This document shows, one piece after another, positions 10,350 to 28,972 of a DNA stretch of 64,000 nucleotides. Numbering within the stretch: position 1 is the first letter of the stretch; each line of letters opens with the position of its first letter. Below the pieces are notes generated by a model. The model did no database searches, had not been told where the DNA came from, and was given only the letters and a program-made list of their open reading frames with translations. Source of the stretch: an uncultured bacterium (GTDB lineage Bacteria; Krumholzibacteriota; Krumholzibacteriia; Krumholzibacteriales; Krumholzibacteriaceae). Where the stretch lies: assembly GCA_963813815.1 (NCBI GenBank), contig CAWFAD010000008.1, positions 128,001 to 192,000 of the forward strand, written 5' to 3'. The position numbers and the translations under genes were made by a program.

Positions 10350-10398
10350 AGAATTATTATTTGTTATCGGACGGCCCTGTCGAAGGAGATTGCATCGC

Positions 10399-13300: not shown

Positions 13301-13860
13301 ATACGATCGCGATCGACTGGGAGGCGAGCGACAACCGCTGGGTCGACTCTGTGAGCGTCTACTTCTCGCACGACGCCGGAGCCACTTTCGAGCTCGTCGC
13401 CGGCGGGCACGCTCCCGACCTGCCGTGCTCCTGGGTCGTTCCGCCGCTGCTCTCCGACTCGTGCCTCGTCCGGGTCGTCGCCTACGATCCGGGGCTCCTC
13501 GAAGGGACCGACTCGAGCGACTCGCTCTTCGCCATCCGCAACTACACCGGCGTCGACGGGGACGATCCCGAGACGCCGCGCTGGACGACCTCGCTCGAGC
13601 AGAACTTCCCGAACCCCTTCAACGGCACGACCACCATCGCCTATTCGGTCGGGGAGCGCTCGGATATCGAGCTCGGGATCTTCGATCCGGCCGGGCGGTC
13701 CGTCCGCGTCCTCGTCCGAGCGGCGCGCGAGCCGGGACGCTATCACGCGGTCTGGGACGGCAGGGACGACGCAGGCCGGGACGTCGCCTCGGGCGTCTAC
13801 TTCTGCCGCATCAAGACCGGAAGCTACAGCCAGACCCGAAAGGTCGTCTACGTGCGCTGA
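10399..13860 (+). CDS. Secreted multidomain papain-like cysteine protease (C1A) with beta-helix, Ig/FN3-like domains and FlgD-Ig/T9SS-like C-terminal domain
   Basis: DWR..GGVTAVKDQGSCGSCWAF, LSEQAIIDC, NHAVLIVGW, KNSWGEDWGEDGFF; GGG(I/V)Y beta-helix repeats; SPAIDAADP..LDPDGSRADIGAFGG; LEQNFPNPFN...WDGRDDAGRDVASGVYF...KVVYVR. Confidence 0.9.
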   Translation: MRPSIFTRIAAIAFILSGVALASAPLLAEESAEQRIERINKENAEKGYHWTAGITSMSRLTPEEKRLRLGFIPPTEDLISTTSTITEPAAVLFDAVFDWRPLGGVTAVKDQGSCGSCWAFAGIGQVESHMRIFDQRIEDLSEQAIIDCNPYDQSCDGGNAIGVYVTVRDSGAVLETCVPYQARDDLPCTESLCEVMARIATYSSVSNNINAIKTALATGPVYTSMTVIDNFFDYSGGCYNSTTTESTNHAVLIVGWDDTACYGSGAWICKNSWGEDWGEDGFFHIQYGVCNIGSWSYQISYIPSVVFVRVDSPDGGEVWNVGEHRLITWTLARQTPDSISVYLSLNGGDSYDYTIASGMENVTTYDWIVPELPVTTARIKVVAYYGGEIGGWDASDTDFEIKGKPYRYVSTTGGNVYPYSTAAWAARAIQDAVDAAVPGDSILVAAGIYTRPIMVDRAAYLFGGWNADFTARDPEAYPTWIKSSGSNVSFVGVASGTCGVEGFRLKGGVGTYALLPTGAAYGGAIFSYLASPVIRWNVIDSCGVASVLNYSAGGGIACYGGTPVIEDNVITRCMAQSGGGIYLYETSAAIRRNTISGCAPNVEFNGTKNGGGVHAYHATMTLEGNTITDNDGYRKGGGIYGYLSPCEMSGDTIALNDSKDAGGGVFAERSALSISGALIRANTSLSMGGGVYHRAGALNVSNSIIAQNRSSIIGGGVYADSSYGSFSNNVADRNAGLYGGGNVFFGNLPSMAVENNCVTYGSVNGVQVISAANIAFRYNDCFGNTPANVVTLVPDATNASFDPLYADTAAGDYRLLVHSPAIDAADPADLDPDGSRADIGAFGGPGAVMAAPEYVRNLAAAPYNASTIRLTWDAAAGGASWYAVYGSDASGLVPSLASFIASVPAPATTFDHTPVSGCRYYRVSAVSADGYGGGYAAEAGACAADVDLIAPTVSVTYPNGGEVLESGDTIAIDWEASDNRWVDSVSVYFSHDAGATFELVAGGHAPDLPCSWVVPPLLSDSCLVRVVAYDPGLLEGTDSSDSLFAIRNYTGVDGDDPETPRWTTSLEQNFPNPFNGTTTIAYSVGERSDIELGIFDPAGRSVRVLVRAAREPGRYHAVWDGRDDAGRDVASGVYFCRIKTGSYSQTRKVVYVR

Positions 13861-15087: not shown

Positions 15088-18000
15088 TCAGCGCACGCGC
15101 ACGCGATAGACGATGCTCCCGGAAGCGCCGCTCTCGAGCGGATAGGGCGCCTGGCGCGAGAGAAGGACGCTGAGCGTCCCTCCCGCGGCGTCGAACATCG
15201 CCTCGTCCGGGTCGAGGGGATCGGCCGTGAGGTACACGGGCACGCCGTCGCGCAGCCACTCCACGTCGAATCCCGGGCCGAAGGCGTCGAGCACGAGCTC
15301 GACCGCCGGCGGTAGGAGATCGATGATTTCGATCTCTTGCACCGCCTCGACGCCCGGGTTCGCGAACGTGATCGTGTACGTCAATACGTCCCCGGGCCGC
15401 GCCTCGGCGAGATCGACGGATTTGGCGAGGGAGAGTAGCCCGCTCGAGCTCGCGAGCACGAGCACCCGGTCCATGGCCGACGCCTCCGCCGTGATCGCCG
15501 TGCCGGCGAGCGTCTGGGAGAGCGTCACCGTGATCGCGCCGATCGTTCCGGCCGGAGCTTGCGGCGGAACGAACACGCGCATGACGATCGGAACGACGTC
15601 CTTCCCCGGAACGTCCGGATCGAGCGCCAGATCGGCCGCCGTGATGAGCGAATCGCCCGGACCGCACGCTCCGTCGCCGTCGTTGTCCCGATAGAAGGCC
15701 GCGACCCATCCCGGCGGCAGCGTCGCGGAGAGGGTCGCCTGTCCCGCCGTGCCCGCGACAACGAGATGCGGCGCGTCGACGAATCCGCCGGCGACGCAGG
15801 TGAGATCGTTCGACGGCGTGATCGCGGGGCCGCGGACGTCCGCGAAATCGACGCGCAGCGTCTCCCCCGCCGCGGCGGCCGCGATCATGACCGTATCGGG
15901 CGAGAGCGATATCATCCCCGCCGGCGTGAGCTCGACGAGCGTGCGCGGCGTTCCGGAGGCGGCCTCGAAGGAATACGACCCGTCGCCGCCGGTGAGCTGC
16001 GCGAGGGTTCCGTCCGGGCCGGCGAGCGTGACGGAAACGCCCGTCCATCCTTCCTCGCACGCGTCCCGCACGCCGTCGTGATCCCGGTCGTCGAACGCGA
16101 CGCCGGCCACGAAAGCGCCCGTGCCGATCTCGAGCGTGACGCTGTCCTCGAGGTCGCGCGAGAGCGCGATGCCGTCGATGATGATCGGCGTGCGGAGCGC
16201 GGCGAACGCCGGAATGTACACCTTGACGGTGAAGATCCGGACGTCTCCGGGAACGATGACGCCGACGTCGTACGGCGACGAGTGATCCCCCGAGCCGTCG
16301 GAAATGACGACCGATCCGGCCGGCCAGCCCGCCGGGGCGGACCAGGACACCCGGAACGAGTCGGGATATCCGCCGCGATTCCAGAGCTCGAGCGTCGCGG
16401 TCGCCATCGCGCCCGGATCGCCGAAGACGAGCGCCAGGCCGCCGTCGCCCGAGCCGGGCGGCGCCGACACGAAAGCGCCGTCACCCTCGATCACGAGATC
16501 GGCGCGCGGCGGCATGCTCACCTGAACGCGGGCGCATACGCTTTCGCCGTTCGTGGAATCGAGCGTCGACACGGCGTCGATGATATAGTCGTAGTCGCCG
16601 GCGAGGGCCGAGAGCGGCACGCTGACGGTGAAGGCGAGGAGCAGCGCGTCGCCCGGCGCCACGGAGGCCGTCGTGTAGGGCGAAGCCGAGCCTTCGAGCC
16701 TCGCCGTCATGCCCGGGACGGCGTTCCAGGAAACGCGGTAGCTCTCCGCTTCGGCGCCCTCGTTCTGGAGCTCCACGGTAAAGGCGATCGTCCTTCCGGC
16801 GACCGTGCTCTGGAGCGACGAGCCTCCCGCGCCGGTCCCCGGATCGCCGAATATCCCGTCTCCGTACCCGTCGATGAGCCCGTCGACGACGCGCGGCGGC
16901 GTCACGCGGACGCGGCCGAGCACGCTGTCGACGAAATAGCGCTTGTTCGTTTTGCATCCGTCGATGACGACGTCGAACGTGCCGCCCGCGCAATCGGCGG
17001 GAACCGACACGGTCATCGTGTAGGCGCCGGCGGGAACGCGGCGCATCGTGGAGGTCGAATCGCCGATGCGGACGTCCCACCCCGGCGGAGTGTTCCACCA
17101 GACGTCGAAGAGATTCTCGCCCGACTCGTTCTGGATCGTGACGGCGAAGGTGACGGTGCTTCCCGGAGTCGCCGTCTTGACCGACGAGCCGCCGAGGCCG
17201 GTGCCGGGCGAGGCGTACGCGTTGTCGCCGTTCCCGTCGATGAGAATATCGATCTCGTTCCCCGTCGCGACCGAAATCGACGCCTTGACGCTCTCGCGCA
17301 CCGTGCCCGACACCGAGGACAAGAAGTTGAATATCGAGGTAAACGTGTCGTAGGCCCCGTTCAGGGGAATCCCCACGGCGAGGACGCAGGGGCGCTCGCT
17401 CCGCGGCGCCATGGTCGGCGTCCTCCACGGAAGCGCGTACGTCGTTCCGTTGTCGATGATGGAGACCGTCCAGCCGCTTGCCGGCGGGACCCAGGACACG
17501 GTGAAGGAGTCGGCGACCCCGCCCTCGTTCTGGATAACGATCGGGAAATACACGGTCGTTCCGCGCGTGCCCGCGACGGAAACGCTCCCGCCGAGCCCCG
17601 CCCCGGTCGGATCGATGATGCCGTCCCCGCTCCCGCAGATGACGACGTCCACCTTCGGGGCGAGCACGCGCGTCACGGCCCTCACCGCGTCCTTCTTCAA
17701 GGTGTCGGTGAGGGAGGTCGCGCGGACGAGGCTCGTATAGTCGCCTCCGAGGAGCGACGCGGGCACGTACACGCGATAGGAATACGACTCCGAGCCGCCC
17801 GACGGAACGAGCCCCGAGCTGAAGGCGCCCGTCCGGACGATCGCTCCGTCGAGAACGTCAGCCGTGAGCGGCGAGGGCGTGGCCCAGTCGACCCGGAACG
17901 AATCGGCGTTCGCCCCTTCGTTATAGAGCGCGATCGTATAGGCCACCATGGCGTTCGGCGCCGTCTCGCGATACGATATCCCGCCTCCGCCCGAGGGATC

Positions 18001-19050
18001 GATCACGCCGTACCCGTTCGCGTCGATGACGAGATCGGCGAGGTAGTCCGCGGGAACGACGTTCGTCGCGAGGCGCACGCTGTCGTAGCGGTTCGCGTAG
18101 ACGGTCGAGACGGCGTCGACGATGGTCGAGTAGCCGCCGACCGCGGCGCCGGGCGGCACGATCGCGACGACCTCGGCGCTGATCGTGGAGCCCGCCGGGA
18201 CGGCGGGCGTGGTCCACGGAAACGCGTACGTCGCGCCTCCGTACCGGACCGACACGCTCCAGCCGGCGGGGGGCGTCGCGCTGAGGCGATAGGTGTCCGC
18301 GGCCGGCCCCTCGTTCTCGACGTCGAGGAAATACGCTATCGTATCGCCCGCCTCGCCGCTCCGGACCGAGTACCCGCCGCTCCCCGTCCCCGCGGCGCCG
18401 AAGAGATCGTCGCCGTCGCCGTCGACCGCGAGATCGACCCATCGGCGATAGACGAGCGACACGTTGTCGACATAGGACCACGTTTCGTAGGAGTTGTTGA
18501 CGCTGTTCTCCTGAAGAAAGTACAGCCGCACGGTCTGCCCCGCGTAGGCGCTCATATCGTATCCCACGGGCGCCGCGGCGTTGTCGTCGAGCCAGCCCGA
18601 ATCCTTGAAGAGGTTGTTCGCCTCCGAGAAGGAGTAGCTGATGACCGTGGCGAGCACGGCGTTCGCCGTGTTGCGGATCTGCATTCGGAACGGATCGCGG
18701 TTCGAGCCGTCGTACCCCTGCTGGCGGAACGCGAAATAGAGAGTCGCCTGCGAGAAGTTCGTCGGAATCGCGACGTCCTGATAGATGTATCCATAATAGT
18801 TGGCGCGGGGCTGCGCGTACTTGAAGCCGATGAGGGCCGAGTAATCGCCGCTGCGCGGCAGATCGAGCACGACGATATGATCGGCGAAGCTCTGATCGGT
18901 GGAGCCCCCTACGATGCTCCCCGCGCCGTGCACCCACCCGCCCGAGAAGCTGCCCGTCTCGAATCCCCCGTTTTGCACGAGCTCTCCCGCGTTCGCGCGC
19001 GTCGCCGCGATCGCGGCGAGAAGATATATGCCGGCGACAAACCGTCTCAT
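15088..19050 (-). CDS. Large secreted repeat protein: N-terminal CBM-like jelly roll, six ~120-aa Ig-like repeats, SdrD-B-like domain and C-terminal truncated DUF11 domain (putative tip adhesin)
   Basis: Signal peptide; ELVQNGGFETG...W and YVDNVSL; repeats Dxx(I/V)DGxGDxxxxxxGxGxGG; GVAFDDRDHDGVRD.CEEGWTGVSVTL; LSLAKSVD...PGDVLTYTITFANPG......IIDLLP ending SIVYRVRVR. Confidence 0.8.
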   Translation of the reverse strand: MRRFVAGIYLLAAIAATRANAGELVQNGGFETGSFSGGWVHGAGSIVGGSTDQSFADHIVVLDLPRSGDYSALIGFKYAQPRANYYGYIYQDVAIPTNFSQATLYFAFRQQGYDGSNRDPFRMQIRNTANAVLATVISYSFSEANNLFKDSGWLDDNAAAPVGYDMSAYAGQTVRLYFLQENSVNNSYETWSYVDNVSLVYRRWVDLAVDGDGDDLFGAAGTGSGGYSVRSGEAGDTIAYFLDVENEGPAADTYRLSATPPAGWSVSVRYGGATYAFPWTTPAVPAGSTISAEVVAIVPPGAAVGGYSTIVDAVSTVYANRYDSVRLATNVVPADYLADLVIDANGYGVIDPSGGGGISYRETAPNAMVAYTIALYNEGANADSFRVDWATPSPLTADVLDGAIVRTGAFSSGLVPSGGSESYSYRVYVPASLLGGDYTSLVRATSLTDTLKKDAVRAVTRVLAPKVDVVICGSGDGIIDPTGAGLGGSVSVAGTRGTTVYFPIVIQNEGGVADSFTVSWVPPASGWTVSIIDNGTTYALPWRTPTMAPRSERPCVLAVGIPLNGAYDTFTSIFNFLSSVSGTVRESVKASISVATGNEIDILIDGNGDNAYASPGTGLGGSSVKTATPGSTVTFAVTIQNESGENLFDVWWNTPPGWDVRIGDSTSTMRRVPAGAYTMTVSVPADCAGGTFDVVIDGCKTNKRYFVDSVLGRVRVTPPRVVDGLIDGYGDGIFGDPGTGAGGSSLQSTVAGRTIAFTVELQNEGAEAESYRVSWNAVPGMTARLEGSASPYTTASVAPGDALLLAFTVSVPLSALAGDYDYIIDAVSTLDSTNGESVCARVQVSMPPRADLVIEGDGAFVSAPPGSGDGGLALVFGDPGAMATATLELWNRGGYPDSFRVSWSAPAGWPAGSVVISDGSGDHSSPYDVGVIVPGDVRIFTVKVYIPAFAALRTPIIIDGIALSRDLEDSVTLEIGTGAFVAGVAFDDRDHDGVRDACEEGWTGVSVTLAGPDGTLAQLTGGDGSYSFEAASGTPRTLVELTPAGMISLSPDTVMIAAAAAGETLRVDFADVRGPAITPSNDLTCVAGGFVDAPHLVVAGTAGQATLSATLPPGWVAAFYRDNDGDGACGPGDSLITAADLALDPDVPGKDVVPIVMRVFVPPQAPAGTIGAITVTLSQTLAGTAITAEASAMDRVLVLASSSGLLSLAKSVDLAEARPGDVLTYTITFANPGVEAVQEIEIIDLLPPAVELVLDAFGPGFDVEWLRDGVPVYLTADPLDPDEAMFDAAGGTLSVLLSRQAPYPLESGASGSIVYRVRVR

Positions 19051-22000
19051 GGCCGCTCGTTCACCCCCGCCCCGTGAAAGTAGCTCAGGATTTTCTCGTT
19101 GAACTTGAGCCGCATGCCGACGTGAAATCCCCGGCGCGAGTAACAGTTATCGGCCGTGTCCGTGTCCTCGCGCCCTCCGAAATCGTATCCGGCGCCGACC
19201 CACACGTTCCCGGCGACGACCCGTCCGGCCTCCACGCCGCCGCCGTAGCTCGTCGTATGAGTCTCGAGCTGGCTCACGACGCGAGCCGCGAGGCTCACGT
19301 CCCACCGTCCGCCGAACGTCCGTATGACCTGCGTCTGATACAGCACGGCCGACGCGGCGGCGGAGTATTCGCGGAAGGTGTTCTCGACGCGGCGCCCCGC
19401 GATCTTTCCCTCGATCTCCCAGTCGGCCGCCGGCCGCCAGTTCGCCTCGAGGGAGGCGAGGTTCTCGCGATCGATCCCCTCGGGATGCGCGGGGCTTCGC
19501 TCCTCGTAGCTCGAGCGGAGGAGCGAGAGAACCGTGAGCGCGTCGCCGCCGCCCGGCCTGACGGAGACGCCGAGCAGGCCTCCTCCCTTGACGTGATCGG
19601 CCTCGCGCTTCTCGTCGGAGAACCAGAGGTCTCCCCGGAGCAGCACGGCCAAGCGCTCGCCGATGCGCCGGAGCCCGGCGAGCTCGGCGAGATGCTTGCG
19701 GCGATCGGGCTCGAGGCGGAGCTCGTAGCTTCCCTTGAGCCGGTAGTCCCCGGCCGCGGGCGTGTAGGCCGCGTTCGTCGACCAGGAGAAATGATCGTCG
19801 ACCGCCTCGCCGCTCACCGTGGCGACCTTCTCGATCGCGACGACCGCCGAGAGCTCGTCGGAGAGCGCGAGGCGCTCCTTGACGCCGAATATCGCCTGCG
19901 CGCGCTCGCCGCTCATCGCCCCCTCGAGCTGGTACCGCGTGTACGCCTGGAGACGCTCCGATACGTTCGACTCGAGACCGAGCTGCGTGAGATGCCTCGT
20001 GCCGGTATGGCTTCCCGTCCGGTACTCGTGCTTGAGCACGGCCGAGACGCGGCGCCAGAGCCGCTGCGAGAGCTTCGCCTGTATGCGGTTCGGATACTCC
20101 TCGACTTCCTCGCCGTCGAGAATCTGGTCCCACTCGATCGCTCCGGCCGTCCGCTCTCCGCCGAGGCCGAGGCCCGTGCGCAGGAGGACGCTCCGGGCGT
20201 TTCCGTCGCGAGCGTCGTTCCGGGCGGCGGCGGCGAAACCCACCGTGCAATCGAGGCGCCCGGCCGTGTACCGCGCGGTGAGATCGCCGTAGCTCTTTTC
20301 CTCGTCCCGCTCCCGGAGCTCGTGCCGGAAGCCCCGCGCGCCGAGCGCGAGCGTCGGCGCGACCCGCCAACTCGCTTCCGCGCCGAGCTTGCGGCTCCCG
20401 AGCTCCGTCTTGCCGCCCGTGAAGGACGGATTGAAGAACGAGTCGTCGACGTCGCGGTAGTAGGCGCTCCACCGGAGGACGCGATCGCGTTCTCCCGCGA
20501 AGCGAATCCGGAAGGCGCTGCCGCCGCCGAGGACGAACTTGTCGCTGCGCGCGAGCTCGCTCTCGATCCGGACCCCGTCGGCGAGCCGGCCCGCGAGATC
20601 GACGCCGAAGAGCGTCGAATTTTCCACGCCCTCCTCCTCGAGCACCGCGGTCACACCGAAGGCGAGGCTGTCGGCGACCTCGAGCGAGCTGCGGACGCCG
20701 TAGATGAAATTGCGCTCCCCCGCGTCGCGGCATTCGTAGCTCACGACGATGGTCACGGGATCGAGGTTCTCGTCGAACCGGGGAATGGGCTCCTTGAAGA
20801 GAATGCTGCCGTCCTCGTAGTTGATGTCGTAGTCGCGGTTCACCTGCTGGTAATCCACGCGCAGGATCCGCTCGGAGAGGTAGCGGTCGCGAACCTCGAT
20901 GCGCACCTTTTCGCTCCCCTCGACGAGCGGGTAATGCTCGAGAAAATAGAATCCACTCGTTCCCTCGCCGGCGAGCTCTTCCTGATAGGTCGCCTGATCG
21001 GTGTTCGTGACGAACGCCCGGATCGAGCCCTGCGGCAGTCGCGCCTCTCCCGAGAGGCCGTTCATGGAGCGGTGGTATTTCGTGAACTCGGTGCTCGCGA
21101 ACTCCGTCCGAAAATCGCCGAGCATCGCCGAGTACCGGCGGTGATCGAGGCGCGCGAACACGCCGCTGCGGGAGGCGGTGTTGAACCGCAGCTCGCTCGC
21201 GTCGCCGTAGACCGGGTAGTACTTCTCCGGCTCGATGCGGCGGAAGAGCATGTCGTCCCGCACGGGCCGCGTGTTGATCGCCGCGGTGAGAACGTGTCCG
21301 GCGCGCACCTCGCCCTGCCCGTAGAGGGCGACCATCCCCTCGGCGTAGCCCCCGTCCGGATTGCGTTCGAGGGAGCGGTGCGCTCCGCCCGCCCCGCCGA
21401 GCGAGGAGTAGCCGAGCGCCCCCTCGCCGTACCCCATGAGGAACCAGCTTCTCTGCGGGCTCTCGTAGTCCACGCGGCAGGCGGCGGATGCCGTTCCGAG
21501 CGCGACGCGCACGAGCTCGCGCCGCGAGTCGCGCAGCGGGGGGAGCCTGAGCGTCACGCGCCCGCCGGCGGTCGCGGCCTGCACGCCGGCCTGCTGCGGA
21601 TTGACGTCGAGCGAGTCGACGAGATCGGCGGGGCCGGTCACCGCCACAAAAACGCCGTCCCGGACCGGGAGCCCGTTGCGGTCGCTCACGAGGAACACCG
21701 CCTCGGGACGAGAGACGCCGTCCGCCGGCGCCGATACGGTCTCGCGCTCGGCGACGATCGCGTGCGGCCGCCCCGCGAGATACACGTGCCGCACGCAGGT
21801 GCTCCGCCTGCCGCCGTACTCGCGGCACACCACGAGAATGTCGTTCCGGCCCTCCTCGATCTTGACCCCGTAGAAAACGGTGCCGAAGACGCCGGCGGCG
21901 ATGTCGATCTTCTTGAGCCCGATGCGGTCCCGTCCGATCGGAAGGCCGTTCACGTAGAGCTCGACGTCCGAGCCGAGCGGCGAGACGACGTCGACGTCGA

Positions 22001-24827
22001 TCTCTCCGCGGGAGTAGAATACCGCTCCCTCGGCGGGCCGGACGATATCGGCGCACAGGCCCGACGAGTCCGAAAGGGCGTACGTGCTCGTATCGGCGCG
22101 GGCGAGCTCTCCGGCGAGCCCCGGATCGCCGGCCGCCGAGCCGGCTGGGGGCACGACGCGGATCTCGACGCGCCGGTTCATCGCGCGCCCCGCCTCGGTG
22201 GCGTTCGTGGCGACCGGTTCGCGATCGCCTCTCCCCGTGTAGTCCATGCGATCCTCGGGAATGCCGTTCATTCTCAGCACCTGAAACACCGAGCGCGCGC
22301 GGGCGAGCGAGAGCTCGAGGTTCGAGGGGAACCGCGCGCTCGCGATCGGTATGCTGTCCGTGTGTCCCTCGACGAACACCGTCCAGCCCTCGTGCTCGCG
22401 GATCCAGAGCGAGAGGGCGGCGATTCGCGAAAGGGGAACGCCCTCGATCAGGGCCTCCCCCGCGCTGAAATGCGTGCCGGGAATCGTGATGGCGTCGAAG
22501 TCCGGCGTCCGCTGCGACGTGGCCGCGGCTCCCGCGGCGGCCGCCGGGATCGTCTCCGGGGCGTTTTCGGAAGGCCGCGCCGGCGGAGGACCGGCGAGCG
22601 CCGAGTCGGCGGCGGCTCCGGCGGCCGCTCCGCCCGCCGCCCGAACCACCGCGAAATCGACCCGCCGGTGGCCGCTCGGCGCGAGGTCGATGAGCGCTTC
22701 GCCCTTCTCCCCGTAGCCGAAATGGCCCGCGTCCCCGGCCGCGAGCGAGTCGGCGAGGGAGGAGGGATCGAGGCGCACGGCGTGCCGCCCCTCGACGACG
22801 CCCGGGATCGAGTAACGTCCGGCCGCGTCCGTCACGGCGTAGGTGCCGTCTTCGATGAACACGGACGCCCCCGGGACGCCCCGCTCCCCCTCGTCCCACG
22901 CGCCGTCCCGGTCGTCGTCGGCGAAAACGGCCCCCGAGATGACGCCGCGCCGCGTGAAGATTCCCTCGACGATGAGCACCGAGGCGCGCGCGGGGCCGTC
23001 GCTCGCGCGCTCGCCGGCGCTCGTCACGCAGTGCGCCCACGCGCTTCCCGTGAGCCTTCCCGTCTCCTGCCCCGAACCCACGCGGGCGCGGAAAACGATT
23101 TCCCGCTTCTCCCCCGGCGCGAGCGAGCCGAGGCTCCACGAGAGGGCGCCGCCGTCGATCGCGGGCGCCATGCTGCCGGTCGCGTACTCGAGACCGGCGC
23201 ACAGACGCTCGACGACCTCGACGCTGTCGAGCGTCGTTTCGTCCGCGACGTTCTCGACCGTCACGATGAAGCTGACGACGTCGCCGACCATGGCGACCGG
23301 CTCGCGGATCGACTGCGAGACGGAAACGAGAGGAATGAACGACTTGAGCAGAACGTCCTCGACCCGGTCGCTCGAGCCCGCGACCGAGAGGGAGGCGGCC
23401 TCGAGATCGAAAACGAGCTCCCTCCCGTCGAAGAGCCGGAATCCCTCCGGAGTCGATTCGAGCCGCAGCCCGACGACGACGGAGGCGCCGCGCGGAACGA
23501 CGCCGGCGAAGGCCCGATACCGCGAGAGGCTCTCGAGCGGCGCGCCGGTCGAATCGACGAACGCGATCCCCCATTCGGGGGGAATCGCCGCCGAATCGGC
23601 CACGGCCACCGAGATGCTGTCGTCGAAATTGCCGCCGTTCAGAATCTCGTGCCAGAGAACGTAGGAGCCGTCGGTGCCGTTGAGCGCCGCGACCACGCGG
23701 TCGGCGGGGGTTTCCGCCGGCGCGTCGGGGTCGCCGCGCGGGCCGATGGCGACGAGGCTCACGCGGCCCACGAGTACGAGGACCTCGTTCGAGACGGCCT
23801 CGCGGTCGGCGCCGGCACCGTCGAGATACGCGCACGACGCCCGGTCGAGAATCCATCCCTCGGGGTGATCGTCCCGCACCCGCGTCCGGTACGAGAAGGC
23901 GCCCGACTCTCCCGCCGAAAGGCTGTCGAGAAGGAGGCGCACGCCCTTCACGCGCTCGGCCGGAGGCTCCGTGGAGGTCCAGACGGATGCCGCCGCGTCG
24001 AAAAATTCGATCCGCCCGCCGAGGGACGAAGCGGCGGATCCCGCGGCGAACTCCGCGCCCGTCAGCACGCCGCCGTCGTCGATTCGCGACTCCAGCGCGA
24101 CGAGCGTCGCGGCCCGCTCTCCCGAATTCTCGAAGTCGATCGCGAAGCCGATCGTATCGCCCGGCAGCGCCGCCGCGGCGTCCGCCGAGAGCGAAAGGGC
24201 GACCGAGGCTTCCGCCCGCGCCGTGACGCGCACGACGTTGCCGCGATCGTACAATGATGTGTCCTCCGACGATCGCGCGACGAGATCGATGTGCGCCGTC
24301 TCTCCTCCGGCGAGGCCCGGCGGCAGAACCGCCTCGAGCAGCAGGAAAACCGATTCGCCCGGATCGAGCGGTCCCACGCTCGTGACCTCGGGCTCTCCCG
24401 CGTCGAGTGCCCCGTCTCCGTCGGCGTCGATGTACACGGCCGTCCGCGCCGGGACGAAGCTCGACGGTGCGGGATACGCGATCGCGAGCGCGAAGGCGTC
24501 CTCGACGTTCCCCGCGTTTTCCAGCCGGAACGGGAAGCGCACCGTCTCCCCAGTGAAGGCGAGCGCCGTCGCCGCGGGACTCGAAACGGTTCCGTCGGGG
24601 GTCAAGAGGGGGCCGTAAGCGGCGAGAACGCTCACGAAAACGGTGTTCGAAAAGATCGAGAGCCGCGCTCCATCGCGGTCGTAAACCGCCTCCGACCGGC
24701 TCGAGATGACCTGTCCGGCCGGCGGAGCTTGGCCGCGGACGAGCGAAGGAAACAGGGCGAGCCCCGCAACCACAAGCAAGAAAAGGGCTTGCCCCCTTCT
24801 CGATCGTATGGCCAACGGTCCGCTCAC
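19047..24827 (-). CDS. Very large DUF11/SdrD-B/OmpA-domain protein with C-terminal outer-membrane beta-barrel (putative anchor/usher)
   Basis: GTG after GGAGG; signal peptide; two DUF11-like domains; GAVFADDDRDGAWDEGERGVPGA; OmpA motifs VEGHTDS, NLELSLARA, NATEAGRAMNRRVEI; long amphipathic beta-strand region ending GFHVGMRLKF. Its stop overlaps the next start (ATGA). Confidence 0.85.
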   Translation of the reverse strand: MSGPLAIRSRRGQALFLLVVAGLALFPSLVRGQAPPAGQVISSRSEAVYDRDGARLSIFSNTVFVSVLAAYGPLLTPDGTVSSPAATALAFTGETVRFPFRLENAGNVEDAFALAIAYPAPSSFVPARTAVYIDADGDGALDAGEPEVTSVGPLDPGESVFLLLEAVLPPGLAGGETAHIDLVARSSEDTSLYDRGNVVRVTARAEASVALSLSADAAAALPGDTIGFAIDFENSGERAATLVALESRIDDGGVLTGAEFAAGSAASSLGGRIEFFDAAASVWTSTEPPAERVKGVRLLLDSLSAGESGAFSYRTRVRDDHPEGWILDRASCAYLDGAGADREAVSNEVLVLVGRVSLVAIGPRGDPDAPAETPADRVVAALNGTDGSYVLWHEILNGGNFDDSISVAVADSAAIPPEWGIAFVDSTGAPLESLSRYRAFAGVVPRGASVVVGLRLESTPEGFRLFDGRELVFDLEAASLSVAGSSDRVEDVLLKSFIPLVSVSQSIREPVAMVGDVVSFIVTVENVADETTLDSVEVVERLCAGLEYATGSMAPAIDGGALSWSLGSLAPGEKREIVFRARVGSGQETGRLTGSAWAHCVTSAGERASDGPARASVLIVEGIFTRRGVISGAVFADDDRDGAWDEGERGVPGASVFIEDGTYAVTDAAGRYSIPGVVEGRHAVRLDPSSLADSLAAGDAGHFGYGEKGEALIDLAPSGHRRVDFAVVRAAGGAAAGAAADSALAGPPPARPSENAPETIPAAAAGAAATSQRTPDFDAITIPGTHFSAGEALIEGVPLSRIAALSLWIREHEGWTVFVEGHTDSIPIASARFPSNLELSLARARSVFQVLRMNGIPEDRMDYTGRGDREPVATNATEAGRAMNRRVEIRVVPPAGSAAGDPGLAGELARADTSTYALSDSSGLCADIVRPAEGAVFYSRGEIDVDVVSPLGSDVELYVNGLPIGRDRIGLKKIDIAAGVFGTVFYGVKIEEGRNDILVVCREYGGRRSTCVRHVYLAGRPHAIVAERETVSAPADGVSRPEAVFLVSDRNGLPVRDGVFVAVTGPADLVDSLDVNPQQAGVQAATAGGRVTLRLPPLRDSRRELVRVALGTASAACRVDYESPQRSWFLMGYGEGALGYSSLGGAGGAHRSLERNPDGGYAEGMVALYGQGEVRAGHVLTAAINTRPVRDDMLFRRIEPEKYYPVYGDASELRFNTASRSGVFARLDHRRYSAMLGDFRTEFASTEFTKYHRSMNGLSGEARLPQGSIRAFVTNTDQATYQEELAGEGTSGFYFLEHYPLVEGSEKVRIEVRDRYLSERILRVDYQQVNRDYDINYEDGSILFKEPIPRFDENLDPVTIVVSYECRDAGERNFIYGVRSSLEVADSLAFGVTAVLEEEGVENSTLFGVDLAGRLADGVRIESELARSDKFVLGGGSAFRIRFAGERDRVLRWSAYYRDVDDSFFNPSFTGGKTELGSRKLGAEASWRVAPTLALGARGFRHELRERDEEKSYGDLTARYTAGRLDCTVGFAAAARNDARDGNARSVLLRTGLGLGGERTAGAIEWDQILDGEEVEEYPNRIQAKLSQRLWRRVSAVLKHEYRTGSHTGTRHLTQLGLESNVSERLQAYTRYQLEGAMSGERAQAIFGVKERLALSDELSAVVAIEKVATVSGEAVDDHFSWSTNAAYTPAAGDYRLKGSYELRLEPDRRKHLAELAGLRRIGERLAVLLRGDLWFSDEKREADHVKGGGLLGVSVRPGGGDALTVLSLLRSSYEERSPAHPEGIDRENLASLEANWRPAADWEIEGKIAGRRVENTFREYSAAASAVLYQTQVIRTFGGRWDVSLAARVVSQLETHTTSYGGGVEAGRVVAGNVWVGAGYDFGGREDTDTADNCYSRRGFHVGMRLKFNEKILSYFHGAGVNERP

Positions 24828-24972
24828 ACTGTTTCCTCCAGAAACGAAACGAGAGGTTGGCCCTTTCTCGGAAGCCAACCTCCAGTTCGGCGTTTTCACG
24901 CCCGATACGCTGGATGGTGCCGACTCATCGCTGCTCGCTTCTCGCTATCCTACCGCCCGTTTCTTGAAAGTC

Positions 24973-25002
24973 GTTGCGGGGCGCCTTTCGGCGCCCCGCA
25001 AC
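24973..25002 (-). terminator. Strong intercistronic stem-loop after the major DUF11 subunit gene (mRNA stabiliser or partial terminator)
   Basis: On the minus strand GTTGCGGGGCGCC-GAAA-GGCGCCCCGCAAC: 13-bp perfect stem with a GNRA loop, 12 nt after the stop, and no strong U-tract. Confidence 0.7.
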
Positions 25003-25014
25003 TCGCCGCGCCGA

Positions 25015-27711
25015 TTATTCCGCTATGATGCGAACGATAAAGGCCGCGCCGTCGGCCGTGCCCGCGCCGCCGGCGAGGGATCCCGCGAGCACCCAGCGAA
25101 CGTTCGTCACGCTCGCGTCGAAGCCCGCCGGAGCGCCGCCGCCGCCGCTCACGGGTGTGTAGGCCCACGTGGCGCCACCGTCATCCGAGAACTCGATCGT
25201 GATGCCCGTGATGCCCGGGGCGAGCGTTCCCGTGACGGCCGAGCCGACCCGGTACTGCGTCCACGCCGGGATCGCGTCATAGATTTCGATCGCCGCGAGA
25301 TCGGCGGTGCCCACGTTCGAGTAGTCGGTCCGGTAGGTGAGCTCCGTTCCCGGAAGCTGCGAACCCGACGGATTGACGGATTTCACGAGAACGAGATTGC
25401 CGGCGACGATCGTCGTGACGTCCGTCGCCGTGTCGGTCGCGCCGGTCGCCTGGCCCGTCGCGCTGATCGTCCCCGTCTCGACCGTGCCGAGCGGCACGCC
25501 CGACGGAATCGAGAGCTGGACGATGACGTTCGTCGAAGCGCCCGGGGCGAGCGTGACGGCCGCGATCGGGTTGTTCGCGAGATCGAAGTACGCGTACGAC
25601 CAGCCGTTCGAGCTCACCGCCGCGAACAGGAACGTGTCGCCGACGTTGCCGGTGTTCGTCACGGCGTGCTGGTAGCGCACCGTTCCGCCGCTCGTGCCGG
25701 TGCCGGCGCGATCGGGGTCGATGGTGACGGAGGCCGCCTGCAGAATCGTGACGGTGTCGGCGATCTCGTCGAAGACGGAGCCGTTATTGGCCGAGGTCGC
25801 CCGGAAGGTCACGGGATTGACGCCGGGAACGGCGCCGAGCGGCACGGCGACGCGCGCTATGACGTTCACCTCGTTGCCGCCCGCGATGGGGCCCACGCCC
25901 GTGATCGGGGTGAGCTCCGGCAGGTCGAGAAGGCCGTTGGCGTTCACGTCGAAATAGTACGTGGCGACCCAGCCCGCGGGAACGGAAGCGGAGAGGTTGA
26001 AGTTGTCGGTCGAGCCGCCCGTGTTGATCACGTCGAGCGCGAAGTCGACGTTCACGCCCGGATTGGCGTTCTGGTTGACCGCGACGTTGTTCGTGCCGGG
26101 AACGCCGTCGTAGTTGCCGATGTCGACCGAGGCCGGCGCGACGAGCGCGATCCGGTCGGTCGTGATGTTCGACTCGGCGGGATCGTTCGCCGAGACGGCC
26201 TGGATGACGGCGTCATACGGACCGCCGGCGCCGGCCGTGCCCGGGATGATGATCCGCACGATGAAATCGCGCGTGTCGCCGGGGTTGAGCGTTCCCACGT
26301 CGGGAATGCCGTCCGTGCCCGTGTCGCCGAGCGGCGTGACGCCGTCGCTGCGGAAGAAGAGCACGCTCCAGCCGGCGGGGATCGTCGAAGCGCCGTCGAG
26401 GACGATGTTGATCTCGTCGGCCGCGTTGCCGTCGTTCCGCACGGTGTTCGTGAAGGAGACGGTCGAGTTGGCGTACGCGAGCGGAATCGACTGCACGTCG
26501 TCGGCGTAGTTCGGCGGCGTGCCGGCGGCCGGCTGGCCGACGGGACCGACGAGCACGTCGGCGAGAACGTTCACGTTGATCTGCGTGTTGTTCGTCGGAA
26601 CGATCGTCGGATCGGGAGAACCGGGGTTGTTGTCCGTGAACGCGACGGCGCCGCTGTTGTTGATGATGCCGGCGCGCATCGTGACCGGAACGACGAGATC
26701 GTAGCCGAAGCTGTAGTTCTGTCCGACCGGGAGCGCGCCGTTCGTGAGATACGCCACGGCGATATCCCCGGCGCCCGCGATCGCGGACCATGCCCACGTC
26801 TCGGGCGAACCCGCCATCGGGCTTCCGGCGGGCAGGTACAACACCGATCCGCCCGCGGGGGCTCCGGCGGGGGCGCCGGAGAGCGCGAGCGGAAGACCCG
26901 TCGTCGGGTCGGTCGGCAGGGCGTCGTACATGAGGACGCCCGTGAGGCCGACGGAGGGAACGGTGACGCCGTTCGCGGGCTGGGTGCCCACGTTGGCGCC
27001 CGTGATCGTGTAGGTGATGACGTTGCCCGGATCGACGTTCGCGGGCACGCCCGACATCACGGCGGTGAGCACGGCGTCGCTCACGACGTCCGTCAGATGG
27101 TAGTTCCGTGTGTCGATGCGGGTCGGATCGCCCGCGGAGGCGCCCTCAACGCCGACGTAGGCGACCTCGCCGACGAGCGAGCCGGGAGGCACCTGATAGG
27201 TGACGAGGATGCCGACCGTCGTTCCCGCGGCGATCGGTCCGAGGTTGCCCGGAACGCCGCCCGAGGAAATCGCCGGTTCGCCGCCGTCGAGAACGCCGTT
27301 GCCGTTCGCGTCATAGTAGATCGTGATGTCGCCGAGCCCGAGCGTCATCGTCGTGTTGGCGGCGTCGAGCAGCGGCTCGATCGAGTATATGTCGGCGTCG
27401 TTGCCGGTGTTCGTGAGGCTGTAGCTGTAGTAAACGGTCTGCCCCGGTATGGCGGTCTGCGTCAGAGCCGGCGTCACGGGCGGGGTCTCGCCCGAATCGT
27501 CCGGAAGGATCGACAGCCCGTACACGGGGAGCACGATCGTCGTGACCTCGTTCGAGGTCGCGGTGTACGTGTTGCCCGAGAGGTCCTGGAACCTCGCCGA
27601 GGCTTGGTTCCGGATCGTCGTGCCGGCGGGGGTCTGCGCCTGCGCCGCCGAAACGACGCAGAGCACGACCGCCAGCATGGCGACGCCGGAGAATAGACGC
27701 GCCTTGAACAT
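25015..27711 (-). CDS. Secreted DUF11/Ig-repeat protein, putative major fimbrial (shaft) subunit
   Basis: GAAGGAG RBS; signal MFKARLF...AQA/Q; mature N-terminus QTPAGTTIRNQASARF; several (T/I)N(T/D)GNxxDx(F/Y/I) Ig repeats with D.NGNG.LD loops; C-terminal LVLVKSV..PG.ELTY...YSNVG......IYDAIP ending FIVRIIAE. Very Thr/Gly/Val/Ala rich. Confidence 0.85.
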   Translation of the reverse strand: MFKARLFSGVAMLAVVLCVVSAAQAQTPAGTTIRNQASARFQDLSGNTYTATSNEVTTIVLPVYGLSILPDDSGETPPVTPALTQTAIPGQTVYYSYSLTNTGNDADIYSIEPLLDAANTTMTLGLGDITIYYDANGNGVLDGGEPAISSGGVPGNLGPIAAGTTVGILVTYQVPPGSLVGEVAYVGVEGASAGDPTRIDTRNYHLTDVVSDAVLTAVMSGVPANVDPGNVITYTITGANVGTQPANGVTVPSVGLTGVLMYDALPTDPTTGLPLALSGAPAGAPAGGSVLYLPAGSPMAGSPETWAWSAIAGAGDIAVAYLTNGALPVGQNYSFGYDLVVPVTMRAGIINNSGAVAFTDNNPGSPDPTIVPTNNTQINVNVLADVLVGPVGQPAAGTPPNYADDVQSIPLAYANSTVSFTNTVRNDGNAADEINIVLDGASTIPAGWSVLFFRSDGVTPLGDTGTDGIPDVGTLNPGDTRDFIVRIIIPGTAGAGGPYDAVIQAVSANDPAESNITTDRIALVAPASVDIGNYDGVPGTNNVAVNQNANPGVNVDFALDVINTGGSTDNFNLSASVPAGWVATYYFDVNANGLLDLPELTPITGVGPIAGGNEVNVIARVAVPLGAVPGVNPVTFRATSANNGSVFDEIADTVTILQAASVTIDPDRAGTGTSGGTVRYQHAVTNTGNVGDTFLFAAVSSNGWSYAYFDLANNPIAAVTLAPGASTNVIVQLSIPSGVPLGTVETGTISATGQATGATDTATDVTTIVAGNLVLVKSVNPSGSQLPGTELTYRTDYSNVGTADLAAIEIYDAIPAWTQYRVGSAVTGTLAPGITGITIEFSDDGGATWAYTPVSGGGGAPAGFDASVTNVRWVLAGSLAGGAGTADGAAFIVRIIAE

Positions 27712-27767
27712 TTGAAACCACACTCCTTCGTGAAGCTCCCGCGAACGGCCGCGCGCGGCCGAACGGG

Positions 27768-28259
27768 TTACTTCACCTGCACGCGATAGGAGACCGAAAC
27801 TTCCTTGCCGACCTCGAGAACGCTCGAGATGTCCCACATGATGTGCGTATACATATCGGGTGTCGCGACGCGCGGCTCCTCGATGCCCCGTTCGTTTACG
27901 ACGTTGTAGCGAACGGGAGCTTCGTGGAACGACTTGCCGCCGTCGATGCTGTAGCTGGTCTTCGCGGCGCCGCTCTCGGTCGCGGTCTTCTCCAGGTACT
28001 CGGTCCCCGCGGGGATCGGCCCCACGAGGCTCACCCCGGAGGCCGGAGCGTCGCCGACGTTGCGGTAGCGCAGCGTGTACTCGAGACGGTCGCTCGGAAA
28101 GACCTTCTCCGCGGAAACCGCGGTCTCGCGGTTTTCCGCGTCAACGACGATCTTCCGGGCTTCCATCGTGCCGGCGAGGGTCGGCCCCTTGCCGTACGCT
28201 GATGCGGAGAGCGATGCGACGATGAGGAAAATGGTCGCAACGACGAAACTCGCTCTCAT
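27768..28259 (-). CDS. Small secreted single DUF11-like domain protein (163 aa)
   Basis: RBS GGAGGGAGAGGG; signal peptide; VFPSDRLEYTLRYRNVG..PASGVSLVGPIPAGTEY; YSIDGGKSF; ends VSYRVQVK. Confidence 0.85.
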   Translation of the reverse strand: MRASFVVATIFLIVASLSASAYGKGPTLAGTMEARKIVVDAENRETAVSAEKVFPSDRLEYTLRYRNVGDAPASGVSLVGPIPAGTEYLEKTATESGAAKTSYSIDGGKSFHEAPVRYNVVNERGIEEPRVATPDMYTHIMWDISSVLEVGKEVSVSYRVQVK

Positions 28260-28373
28260 TCCCTCTCCCTCCTTTTTGCGCTCCTCCCGGGGAGGAGCCG
28301 GTGAAACGAACCATAGCCGCCCCCTGCTCGATGAGCGGGACGGCGCTCGCAAATTTTCCCATCCGAGACAAAG

Positions 28374-28389
28374 GCAATCAGCATTCCAA
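28374..28389 (-). promoter_or_regulatory. sigma54 (RpoN) -24/-12 promoter for the DUF11 operon
   Basis: Minus strand TTGGAATGCTGATTGC = GG-N10-GC, close to consensus TGGCAC-N5-TTGC, about 115 nt upstream of the first ATG. Confidence 0.7.
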
Positions 28390-28657: not shown

Positions 28658-28972
28658 TTACTTGTCCCCGCTCTCTTTCTCGCCGATGTACTTCTGCGGA
28701 TCCGCCTTGAAGGCTTCCATGTTCTCCGCGCTCGCGAAATAGTAAATCACGCCGTCGAGCTCGAACGAGTACGGCGTGCTCATCACGTCGATCTCTTCCT
28801 TGCTCACCAGATCGTAAGACGGGCTCACCTTGCCGGCCCGCTCCGATGCGTCCGCCGCCGGGGTCGCGGTCTGCGTGGTCTCGTTCGCCGGGGCCTGCTC
28901 CGTCTTCTTCGAGCATCCGAACGAAAGCGCGATGAAAAGGGCGAGGCTCAGGACGACAATCATTCTCATCAT
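28658..28972 (-). CDS. Small lipoprotein with YHS/TRASH-like domain lacking cysteines
   Basis: Lipobox LSFGC; DLVS...I....PYSFELDGVIYYFASAENMEAFKADPQKY fits the YHS pattern. Confidence 0.75.
   Translation of the reverse strand: MMRMIVVLSLALFIALSFGCSKKTEQAPANETTQTATPAADASERAGKVSPSYDLVSKEEIDVMSTPYSFELDGVIYYFASAENMEAFKADPQKYIGEKESGDK

What the first reader, a model, noticed from the sequence alone, without database searches (positions are those of the whole stretch)
15088..28389. Candidate new pilus system: split DUF11 domains predict head-to-tail strand complementation and Lys-Asn isopeptide crosslinking in a diderm
Seen: four co-oriented secreted-protein genes behind a sigma54 motif. A complete DUF11 domain runs 'L.l.K....pGd.ltYti...N.G......v.D.lP ... 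ltf.v.v ... gt.i.N.A'. Three proteins here end right at the 'f.v.v' strand and lack the final Asn-bearing strands: the 163-aa protein (VSYRVQVK*), the 898-aa protein (AFIVRIIAE*) and the 1320-aa protein (IVYRVRVR*). Two proteins instead begin, right after the signal peptide, with those missing strands: QTPAGTTIRNQASARF...SNEVTTIV (898 aa) and QAPPAGQVISSRSEAVY...SNTVFVSV (1926 aa). The distribution is tip = acceptor only plus lectin-like N-domain, shaft = donor plus acceptor, base = donor only plus OmpA peptidoglycan-binding domain and OM beta-barrel. Established: DUF11/CnaB-like Ig folds can form autocatalytic Lys-Asn isopeptide bonds with a nearby acidic residue, and chaperone-usher and type V pili polymerise by donor strands. 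Inference: a self-polymerising fibre that needs no sortase and no classical usher family, covalently linked between shaft subunits. Similar DUF11/OmpA clusters occur in other bacteria, but I know of no characterised assembly mechanism for them.
Basis: partly seen in the sequence, partly recalled or inferred. Interest (0 to 1): 0.93.

Follow-up and report, generated by a model that had tools for sequence, protein, structure and literature searches.

The report
Split isopeptide-domain fibre on giant porin
Four neighbouring genes encode secreted proteins in which one stabilising domain is cut in two, its last two strands sitting at the start of other proteins, so the proteins probably plug into each other to form a chain anchored on a giant outer-membrane barrel.

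Summary
Four minus-strand genes (163, 898, 1926 and 1320 aa) follow a sigma54-type -24/-12 box. Three proteins stop right after the seventh strand of a DUF11/CLIPPER domain. Two start, right after the signal peptide, with a two-strand segment that looks like the missing strands.

A fold of the 898-aa protein's C-terminal domain with its own N-terminal 41 residues scored 0.87, against 0.02 for the best control. The same polarity, an acceptor-only protein next to a donor-bearing giant OmpA barrel protein, recurs in 14 of 14 usable Geomonas-type loci.

The Lys/Asp/Asn triad is complete and invariant only for the 898-aa donor with the 898-aa and 1320-aa acceptors. Here the anchor's donor has Ser and the 163-aa acceptor has Gly, so those joints would be non-covalent.

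Four things are not shown: homopolymerisation, cis versus trans closure of the 898-aa protein, any crosslink, and surface location. OmpA placement suggests the anchor's arm starts on the periplasmic side.

Donor-strand exchange locked by an isopeptide bond is already known in BsaA and archaeal threads. A naturally split CLIPPER domain was not found in my literature searches. Verdict: a new variant of a known kind, of high interest.

The parts
28373..28388 (-). sigma54-type -24/-12 box TGGAATGCTGATTGCC upstream of P1
   Evidence: Read. A like box was found in 40 of 48 related loci.
27768..28259 (-). P1, 163 aa. It has a signal peptide and a single acceptor-type truncated DUF11 domain with an Asp-box-like insert. 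Lys36 is present, but Gly80 stands at the catalytic Asp position.
25015..27711 (-). P2, 898 aa. It has a signal peptide, an N-terminal two-strand donor, about six Ig-like domains and a C-terminal acceptor domain. It is the most conserved of the four proteins.
27526..27636 (-). P2 donor hairpin (aa 26-62), carrying the invariant Asn35
25018..25410 (-). P2 acceptor domain (aa 768-898; DUF7507/CLIPPER_2 hit), with invariant Lys777 and Asp812
19047..24827 (-). P3, 1926 aa. In order: donor, Ig-like arm (homologous to the P2 N-terminal half), complete DUF11, SdrD_B, variable Ala/Pro/Gly linker, OmpA, two Ig-like domains and a giant beta-barrel.
24627..24731 (-). P3 donor hairpin (aa 33-67), with Ser43 at the Asn position
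22962..23333 (-). P3 internal complete DUF11 (aa 499-622), used as the ruler
22173..22397 (-). P3 OmpA-like peptidoglycan-binding domain
   Evidence: PF00691 scores 44.9 bits against a cut-off of 27.2. There are many NCBIfam OmpA/MotB-type hits.
19101..21443 (-). P3 C-terminal beta-barrel, with at least 32 long strands in the model. It ends with an OMP-like ...RLKF signature plus a short tail.
   Evidence: AF2 model, pLDDT 73. The top Foldseek hits are Deinococcus SlpA, then SprA and LptD, all at low TM.
15088..19050 (-). P4, 1320 aa. It has a signal peptide, an N-terminal jelly-roll-like domain (weak leads only), repeated Ig-like modules, SdrD_B and a C-terminal acceptor.
15091..15453 (-). 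P4 acceptor domain (aa 1200-1320), with invariant Lys1210 and Asp1244

Best explanation
The four proteins are exported by Sec and join end to end by completing each other's split CLIPPER (DUF11/DUF7507) domains. The free N-terminal hairpin of P2 or P3 stands in for strands 8 and 9 of the fold. It inserts into the seven-strand C-terminal domain of P1, P2 or P4, with one donor strand going to each sheet.

P3 is donor-only and carries the OmpA domain and a giant outer-membrane barrel, so it is the anchor. P2 has both a donor and an acceptor, so it is the connector and may repeat head to tail. P4 and P1 are acceptor-only, so they end the chain.

Where the P2 donor (Asn35) meets a P2 or P4 acceptor (Lys plus Asp), an autocatalytic Lys-Asn isopeptide bond could lock the joint. 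In this genome the joints made by the P3 donor (Ser43) or the P1 acceptor (Gly80) would stay non-covalent.

Shown: the termini, their conservation, and the modelled fit of one pair. Inferred: pairing in trans, the order of the parts, the number of P2 copies, the covalent bond and the cellular location.
For: 1. Truncation and donor motifs are present and conserved.

2. Complex fold of P2 765-898 with P2 26-66. The scores were 0.87, 0.87 and 0.86, and the best of 3 controls was 0.02. The mark was reached by 116 of 157 solved complexes and 2 of 215 mismatched pairs. The runs agree in at least 94% of contacts, and the partner's pLDDT is at least 87. Donor residues 33-44 lie against 808-812 (the Asp812 strand). 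Donor residues 51-56 lie against 773-779 (the Lys777 strand). Residue 37 touches 775 and 812, which puts Asn35, Lys777 and Asp812 in one register. That matches the CnaA-like rule of Lys on the first strand and Asn on the penultimate strand, on opposing sheets (PMC12617251, passages read).

3. Only pairing in trans can serve P3, which has no acceptor, and P1 and P4, which have no donor. One complete relative, G023, keeps only P3 and P4.

4. Triad residues: P2 Asn35, Lys777 and Asp812 are invariant in 15 of 15 sequences. P4 Lys1210 and Asp1244 are invariant in 10 of 10.

5. A distant lineage shows the same polarity. P3 homologues from Geomonas silvestris and relatives begin with the donor motif. 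In 14 of 14 loci that hold both the N-terminus and upstream DNA, the gene immediately upstream ends ...LYVYFRVQVE, just after a half DUF11 hit.

6. No usher, PapD_N or sortase family was found in the genome, and the positive controls rang.
Against: - The complex fold rebuilds a fold that is known as a single chain, so the pass may be fold recognition. It cannot separate cis from trans for P2.
- Only one of the six possible donor-acceptor pairs was folded.
- P1 alone folds confidently (pLDDT 88.5). Its insert strands might fill the gap. Its alignment to CLIPPER 9IFR runs over chain residues 18-109 of 123 (Z 8.0, a middling score), so only the absence of the last strand is clear from structure.
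- Pfam and my own ruler did not detect the short donors.
- There are three acceptors for two donors.
- No coordinates were available to measure the Lys-Asn distance.
- The OmpA position implies that the donor arm leaves the barrel on the periplasmic side, so a surface fibre needs an export step that is not identified.
Confidence: 0.6

Rival explanations
1. Defined hetero-oligomer with no polymer. Each P3 anchor carries one P2 and one cap (P4 or P1), giving a stalk of fixed length. P2 never binds P2.
For: The gene set allows it: two donors and three acceptors. G023 works with P3 and P4 alone, and the Geomonas-type system has only one acceptor protein per anchor. P2 length is almost fixed at 884-920 aa in the 120 listed homologues.
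Against: The P2 acceptor keeps Lys777 and Asp812 in every lineage. Yet the P3 donor lacks Asn in the window's clade (Ser in 8 and Ala in 1 of 9 sequences). The only Asn-bearing donor that could use them is P2's own. The folded P2-P2 pair scored 0.87.
Confidence: 0.25
2. Cis closure. P2's N-terminal hairpin folds back into its own C-terminal domain, making a circularly split domain with a large insertion. Only P3 pairs in trans, with P1 or P4.
For: CnaA- and CnaB-like folds tolerate domain insertions (PMC12617251, passage read). The fold fits cis as well as trans. The P2 donor and acceptor are both nearly invariant.
Against: About 700 residues of Ig-like domains would have to loop back. P2 would then have no link to the three proteins it is always encoded with. 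One of the two acceptor-only proteins would be left without a partner.
Confidence: 0.15
3. No complementation. The C-terminal domains are complete variants, with the Asp-box-like insert replacing the lost strands. The N-terminal motif is simply the first strands of the first Ig domain.
For: The P1 monomer model is confident. The donors are not recognised by Pfam.
Against: The insert residues are not in the modelled interface, and the donor pairs with the first and third strands. Both termini are conserved, and the donor-only/acceptor-only split recurs in two distant lineages.
Confidence: 0.08
4. Same chain chemistry, but the assembly is periplasmic. It would be an outer-membrane-to-wall tether or scaffold hung from the P3 barrel and its OmpA domain, not a surface pilus.
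For: OmpA lies before the barrel here and after it in the Geomonas type, so both barrel ends, and the arm, are periplasmic by the usual OMP topology. P1, P2 and P4 have plain Sec signals and no T9SS C-terminal domain, unlike the neighbouring protease. The best structural neighbour of the barrel is the OM-wall tether SlpA (low TM of 0.21). P2 is 57-84% identical across the phylum, which is unusually conserved for a surface adhesin.
Against: P4 starts with a domain whose weak leads are carbohydrate-binding or adhesin modules (all scores under 0.9). A chain of more than 20 Ig domains is longer than a periplasm. A barrel of at least 32 strands could let folded Ig domains pass.
Confidence: 0.35

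Closest known systems
CLIPPER (DUF11, PF01345) and CLIPPER_2 (DUF7507) intramolecular isopeptide domains, PDB 9IFR (PMC12617251; abstract and passages read)
   Same: The domain family is the same. The Lys (first strand), Asp and Asn (penultimate strand) positions are the same. The context is also alike: Ig-rich secreted proteins, sometimes with an OmpA-like anchor.
   Different: In the known case the domain is whole within one chain and the bond is intramolecular. Here the last two strands are encoded at the N-terminus of the same or another protein. The paper's text holds no 'split' or 'strand complementation'.
BsaA (TasA family) of Clostridium perfringens: donor-strand exchange locked by an Asn-Lys isopeptide bond with a Glu catalyst (bioRxiv 10.1101/2024.11.04.621531; abstract and passages read). 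Also archaeal threads (PMC9715654; search listing only).
   Same: An N-terminal donor inserts into the neighbouring subunit, followed by an autocatalytic intermolecular Lys-Asn bond. Neither sortase nor usher is involved.
   Different: The fold family is different: no TasA or camelysin hit appears. In BsaA one strand is donated rather than a hairpin, the host is a monoderm or archaeon, and there is no barrel anchor. The bond there is shown by mutants. Here it is only inferred.
Chaperone-usher pili (Fim and Pap)
   Same: An incomplete Ig fold is completed by an N-terminal extension of the next subunit. The layout of tip adhesin, shaft and outer-membrane component is similar.
   Different: No usher or PapD chaperone was found. 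The donor has two strands. The anchor is itself a subunit fused to a barrel of at least 32 strands. A covalent lock is possible.
SpyTag/SpyCatcher and related engineered split isopeptide domains (PMC5487036 and PMC5333627; search listings only)
   Same: An isopeptide domain is cut into a short strand-bearing tag and a catcher that reconstitute and bond.
   Different: Those are man-made, from CnaB or RrgA domains. Here the split would be natural and in a CnaA-like CLIPPER domain.
Deinococcus SlpA / OmpM-type outer-membrane-to-wall tethers (PDB 8ae1, 8agd)
   Same: A giant barrel is combined with a wall-binding domain in one protein. These are the top Foldseek hits for the P3 barrel.
   Different: TM is only 0.21. 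P3 has OmpA in place of SLH, no coiled coil, and an added Ig arm with a donor hairpin.

Membership tests
CLIPPER / DUF11 (PF01345) and DUF7507 | Profile match above the curated cut-off | tested here: met
   P1 scores 27.4 against a cut-off of 24.6. P3 scores 51.0. P4 scores 52.5. P2 hits DUF7507 at 40.6 against a cut-off of 27.
CLIPPER / DUF11 (PF01345) and DUF7507 | All nine strands of the sandwich in one contiguous stretch | tested here: not met
   The C-terminal copies of P1 and P4 end at position 86 of the 124-position ruler. The Pfam hits stop at profile positions 50-67. P3's internal copy is complete.
CLIPPER / DUF11 (PF01345) and DUF7507 | Lys (first strand), Asp and Asn (penultimate strand) triad | tested here: inconclusive
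   The residues are present and invariant, but lie on separate segments: P2 Lys777/Asp812 with Asn35, and P4 Lys1210/Asp1244. They are absent from the P3 donor (Ser43) and from P1 (Gly80). The geometry was not measurable and the bond was not tested.
Chaperone-usher pili | Usher (PF00577) and PapD-like chaperone (PF00345) | tested here: not met
   There were 0 matches in the own genome (90.8% complete), and the controls rang.
Sortase-assembled pili | Sortase (PF04203) and a C-terminal LPXTG sorting signal | tested here: not met
   No sortase was found. The four C-termini end in a beta-strand and carry no LPXTG.
Type V (Bacteroidota FimA-type) pili | Lipoprotein precursors (lipobox Cys) | tested here: not met
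   The signal peptides end ASA-YG, AQA-QT and VRG-QA, with no Cys. The donor is N-terminal.
Type V (Bacteroidota FimA-type) pili | Proteolytic activation | not tested
   No call addressed proteolytic activation of the subunits.
BsaA/TasA 'exchange and lock' fibres | TasA/camelysin fold family | tested here: not met
   No such Pfam family appears among the hits. The mechanism is alike, but the family is not.
OmpA-family peptidoglycan-binding proteins | OmpA C-terminal-like domain (PF00691) | tested here: met
   44.9 bits against a cut-off of 27.2, plus NCBIfam hits. One orthologue line (G027; P0459) lacks the domain.
SlpA/OmpM-type tethers | SLH domain plus a 30-strand barrel trimer | tested here: inconclusive
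   The barrel is the top Foldseek hit, but TM is 0.21. No SLH hit appears.

The most novel reading that the evidence does not exclude
This would be a natural tag/catcher system. A CnaA-like isopeptide domain is split between proteins, so that Sec-exported subunits self-assemble into a covalently locked fibre of P2 units with no chaperone, usher or sortase. The fibre is capped by a carbohydrate-binding P4. It is held by P3, and is perhaps exported through P3's barrel of at least 32 strands. The triad has been switched off at chosen joints (P3 donor, P1) to leave reversible links.
Probability: 0.25. Interest if true: 0.9.

Novelty: new variant of a known kind. Interest (0 to 1): 0.8.

Why it matters
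If true, this adds a further route to bacterial fibres besides chaperone-usher, sortase, type IV, type V and TasA-like assembly. It would be built from a very common stalk domain simply by moving two strands. It would be the natural counterpart of engineered split isopeptide tags.

It also gives a role to a large family of unannotated giant OmpA-barrel proteins. That family occurs in Krumholzibacteriota, in Geomonas-type bacteria and in MAGs labelled Polarisedimenticolia. Finally, it offers a culturable model, Geomonas silvestris GMST_05590 and its upstream gene, for testing.

Tried and rejected
- PDB sequence searches with the P4 and P2 acceptor domains gave only chance hits.
- Pfam at E up to 10 on the isolated donors found nothing. 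My HMM ruler also did not align them.
- Foldseek on the P1 model found nothing at E of 0.001 or better.
- The profile search of 1.84 billion representatives with P1 was swamped by giant multi-repeat DUF11 proteins. It gave only three P1-sized hits and was useless for judging range.
- Earlier-findings look-up: nothing to show.
- RNA runs: no RNA holder listed.
- I first thought that P1 never has both Lys and Asp. This is wrong: seven divergent loci have both.
- A possible covariation was seen. P3-donor Asn co-occurs with P1 Lys plus Asp in 5 of 5 loci where both could be read, with one exception (L073: Ser with Lys plus Asp). It rests on perhaps two or three independent changes among kin, so I treat it as a lead, not evidence.
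- Literature searches found no split or intermolecular CLIPPER and nothing on Krumholzibacteriota fibres. The term sets were: DUF11 + isopeptide; DUF11 + donor strand; intermolecular isopeptide / donor strand / autocatalytic; CLIPPER domain + isopeptide; and Krumholzibacteriota with DUF11, isopeptide, pilus or adhesin. Supplements were not read.

Full report
**What is there.**
The region holds four co-oriented minus-strand genes:
- P1: 163 aa, 27768-28259.
- P2: 898 aa, 25015-27711.
- P3: 1926 aa, 19047-24827.
- P4: 1320 aa, 15088-19050.

The cluster is bounded by a DegT-type aminotransferase gene and a phosphofructokinase gene on the other strand. A small lipoprotein gene (28660-28972) ends in a hairpin with a T run. 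A GG-N10-GC sigma54-type box, TGGAATGCTGATTGCC, follows at 28373-28388. A like box lies upstream of P1 in 40 of 48 related loci. All four proteins have Sec-type signal peptides without a lipobox.

**Domains.**
Pfam and NCBIfam find DUF11/TIGR01451 at the C-termini of P1 and P4, but only over the first half of the profile. The P2 C-terminus hits DUF7507. P3 has a complete internal DUF11, an SdrD_B domain and an OmpA domain.

I made a 124-position ruler from P3's own complete DUF11. On it, P1 and P4 both stop at position 86, right after the 'f.v.v' strand.

The last 1002 residues of P3 were folded with a 24-row alignment (mean pLDDT 73). The model gives two Ig-like domains and then a barrel with at least 32 long strands. 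Its best PDB neighbours are Deinococcus SlpA, T9SS SprA and LptD, all at low TM of 0.21 or less. The ESM Atlas gives unnamed outer-membrane proteins of about 860 aa.

The N-terminal 194 residues of mature P4 give only weak leads, all under 0.9, to CBM_4_9, DUF642 and Cleaved_Adhesin clusters. 'Lectin-like' is therefore plausible but not shown.

**The split domain.**
A paper read in passages (PMC12617251) shows that DUF11, renamed CLIPPER, is a nine-strand CnaA-like sandwich. It has an intramolecular bond between Lys on strand 1 and Asn on the penultimate strand, on opposing sheets, with a nearby Asp (PDB 9IFR: Lys715, Asp748, Asn806).

The C-terminal domains of P1, P2 and P4 keep the Lys strand and the 'v.D.lP' strand but lack strands 8 and 9. 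Mature P2 and P3 begin, one to four residues after the predicted signal-peptide cleavage site, with a hairpin that has the pattern of those two strands. The first strand reads 'G..I.N.A...F/Y' and the second 'SN.V...V'.

P3's first roughly 450 residues are homologous to P2's (29% identity). The donor therefore belongs to a shared N-terminal module.

**Model test.**
P2 765-898 was folded with P2 26-66, using my 15-row alignment. The scores were 0.87, 0.87 and 0.86, and the best of three controls was 0.02. The mark was reached by 116 of 157 solved complexes and 2 of 215 mismatched pairs. The runs agree in at least 94% of contacts, and the partner's pLDDT is at least 87.

Donor residues 33-44 lie on 808-812, and donor residues 51-56 lie on 773-779. 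Residue 37 touches both 775 and 812. By register, that brings Asn35, Lys777 and Asp812 together.

There are caveats. The two chains rebuild a fold that is known as one chain, so the pass may be fold recognition. It cannot tell cis from trans. No coordinates were given. Only this one pair was tested.

P1 alone folds confidently (pLDDT 88.5). It aligns to 9IFR at a middling Z of 8.0 (rmsd 2.4, 91 residues, chain residues 18-109 of 123). So structure alone shows clearly only that the last strand has no counterpart.

**Conservation.**
The P2 query matched 30 of 41 related genomes. With a P2 profile, 68 of 181 genomes of the phylum that are at least 80% complete match:
- families f1 30/34, f2 1/1, f3 7/8, f6 19/21, f9 10/12;
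- families f4 0/78, f5 0/5, f7 0/11, f8 0/10.

The P3 barrel profile matched 30 of 71 genomes at least 95% complete. That includes 22 of 22 in families f1, f3, f6 and f9.

Record titles name the organisms as Candidatus Krumholzibacteriota, with some labelled Latescibacteria-like.

The order P1-P2-P3-P4 holds in 8 of 9 fetched loci. It also holds wherever the DNA reaches in 51 further loci. In some divergent loci P3 fell under my identity filter and was then found as the ORF between P2 and P4.

P2 is the most conserved of the four, at 57-84% identity, with length 884-920 aa in 116 of the 120 listed homologues (four shorter rows, 711-879 aa). All are annotated only as hypothetical, TIGR01451 or DUF11 proteins. 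P1-sized homologues are likewise unannotated.

One single-contig relative (G023, 91% complete) has only P3 and P4.

**Triad.**
- P2 Asn35, Lys777 and Asp812 are invariant in 15 of 15 sequences. They are also kept in the divergent loci read.
- P4 Lys1210 and Asp1244 are invariant in 10 of 10.
- P3 has Ser at the Asn position in 8 of 9 sequences and Ala in 1.
- P1 has Lys36 but Gly80 in the window's clade.

Divergent clades differ. P1 is Arg+Asp or Lys+Asp, and the P3 donor carries Asn in five loci. Those five are exactly loci where P1 has Lys+Asp. There is one exception the other way, L073. This hints that the P3 donor may pair with P1, but it rests on few independent changes.

**A second lineage.**
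Searching with the P3 barrel found 105 proteins. They include Geomonas silvestris GMST_05590 and MAG proteins labelled Polarisedimenticolia. Of the 12 read, 11 begin after the signal peptide with the donor-like motif, carrying His, Asn or Ser at the Asn position; one (P0494) shows none.

In the Geomonas type, OmpA lies after the barrel. A metagenome scan gave 37 loci. Of the 22 close ones, 8 lack the N-terminus or upstream DNA. In the other 14 of 14, the gene immediately upstream encodes an Ig-rich protein of about 415-480 aa. Its DUF11 hit covers profile positions 11-58 or 11-64 of 114, and the protein ends ...LYVYFRVQVE or similar.

That protein has Glu and Ser at the Lys and Asp positions, so the joint would be non-covalent.

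**How it most likely works.**
Pairing in trans is the only use for a donor-only protein and for acceptor-only proteins. It also links all four products.
- P3 anchors the chain.
- P2 connects, and may repeat.
- P4 or P1 terminates the chain.

The invariant P2 acceptor triad, set against a P3 donor without Asn, argues that the P2 donor does enter P2 acceptors, either in trans as a polymer or in cis. A covalent lock is then plausible for P2-P2 and P2-P4 joints only.

Location is open. OmpA lies on either side of the barrel in different lineages, so the arm starts in the periplasm. It may stay there as a tether or scaffold. Or the chain may pass through the very wide barrel, as an autotransporter passenger does.

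No usher, PapD or sortase family was found in the 90.8%-complete genome.

**Compared with what is known.**
Donor-strand complementation defines chaperone-usher pili. Donor-strand exchange locked by an autocatalytic Asn-Lys bond is described for BsaA (bioRxiv 10.1101/2024.11.04.621531, abstract and passages read) and for archaeal threads (search listing only). Split isopeptide domains are known as engineered tags (search listings only).

What appears new is a natural split of the CLIPPER fold, a two-strand donor, and a giant-barrel subunit as the anchor. None of this turned up in five searches.

**Verdict.**
- Observation: confirmed.
- Interpretation: partly supported.
- Novelty: a new variant of a known kind.
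- Interest: 0.8.

Noticed in passing
window 10390-13860 (+): A protein of 1156 aa with a papain-family C1 peptidase domain, Ig-like domains and a T9SS C-terminal sorting domain. The organism therefore probably has type IX secretion, yet P1-P4 lack that tail.
   Followed up: no
window 28660-28972 (-): A small lipoprotein gene (lipobox ...SFGC) upstream of the cluster. It is followed by a GC-rich hairpin with a T run, before the sigma54-type box.
   Followed up: no
L020 (G023:C1:2885000-2904000): A single-contig relative keeps only P3 and P4. No P1 or P2 was found in that genome. Its P4 still has Lys and Asp, although its P3 donor has Ser.
   Followed up: partly
L015 (G027) P3; protein P0459: This P3 orthologue has lost most of the OmpA domain. 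There is a gap in alignment columns about 900-960, and no PF00691 in the precomputed domains.
   Followed up: no
P2 aa 838-850 and P1 aa 104-112 (window about 25160-25200 and 27925-27950): The acceptor domains carry an insert with an Asp-box-like motif (S-x-D-G-G-x-T/S-W/F). The insert is outside the modelled donor interface.
   Followed up: no
L077, L081, L089 downstream of the P3-like gene: In Geomonas-type loci the pair is followed by a membrane protein, a histidine kinase and a response regulator whose C-terminal end, read by eye, resembles a GGDEF domain (not scanned against Pfam). This hints at c-di-GMP-linked control.
   Followed up: no
P3 aa about 735-790 (window about 22460-22620): An Ala/Pro/Gly-rich linker lies between the Ig arm and OmpA. 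Its length varies greatly between orthologues, and G023 has long Gly-Asp-Gly-Thr repeats there.
   Followed up: no
G121:C320:15513-17924 and G137:C2:42646-44718: Family f4 had no P2 match in 78 genomes, yet two members hold P3-like ORFs of about 1955-1988 aa. These may be another reduced form of the system.
   Followed up: no
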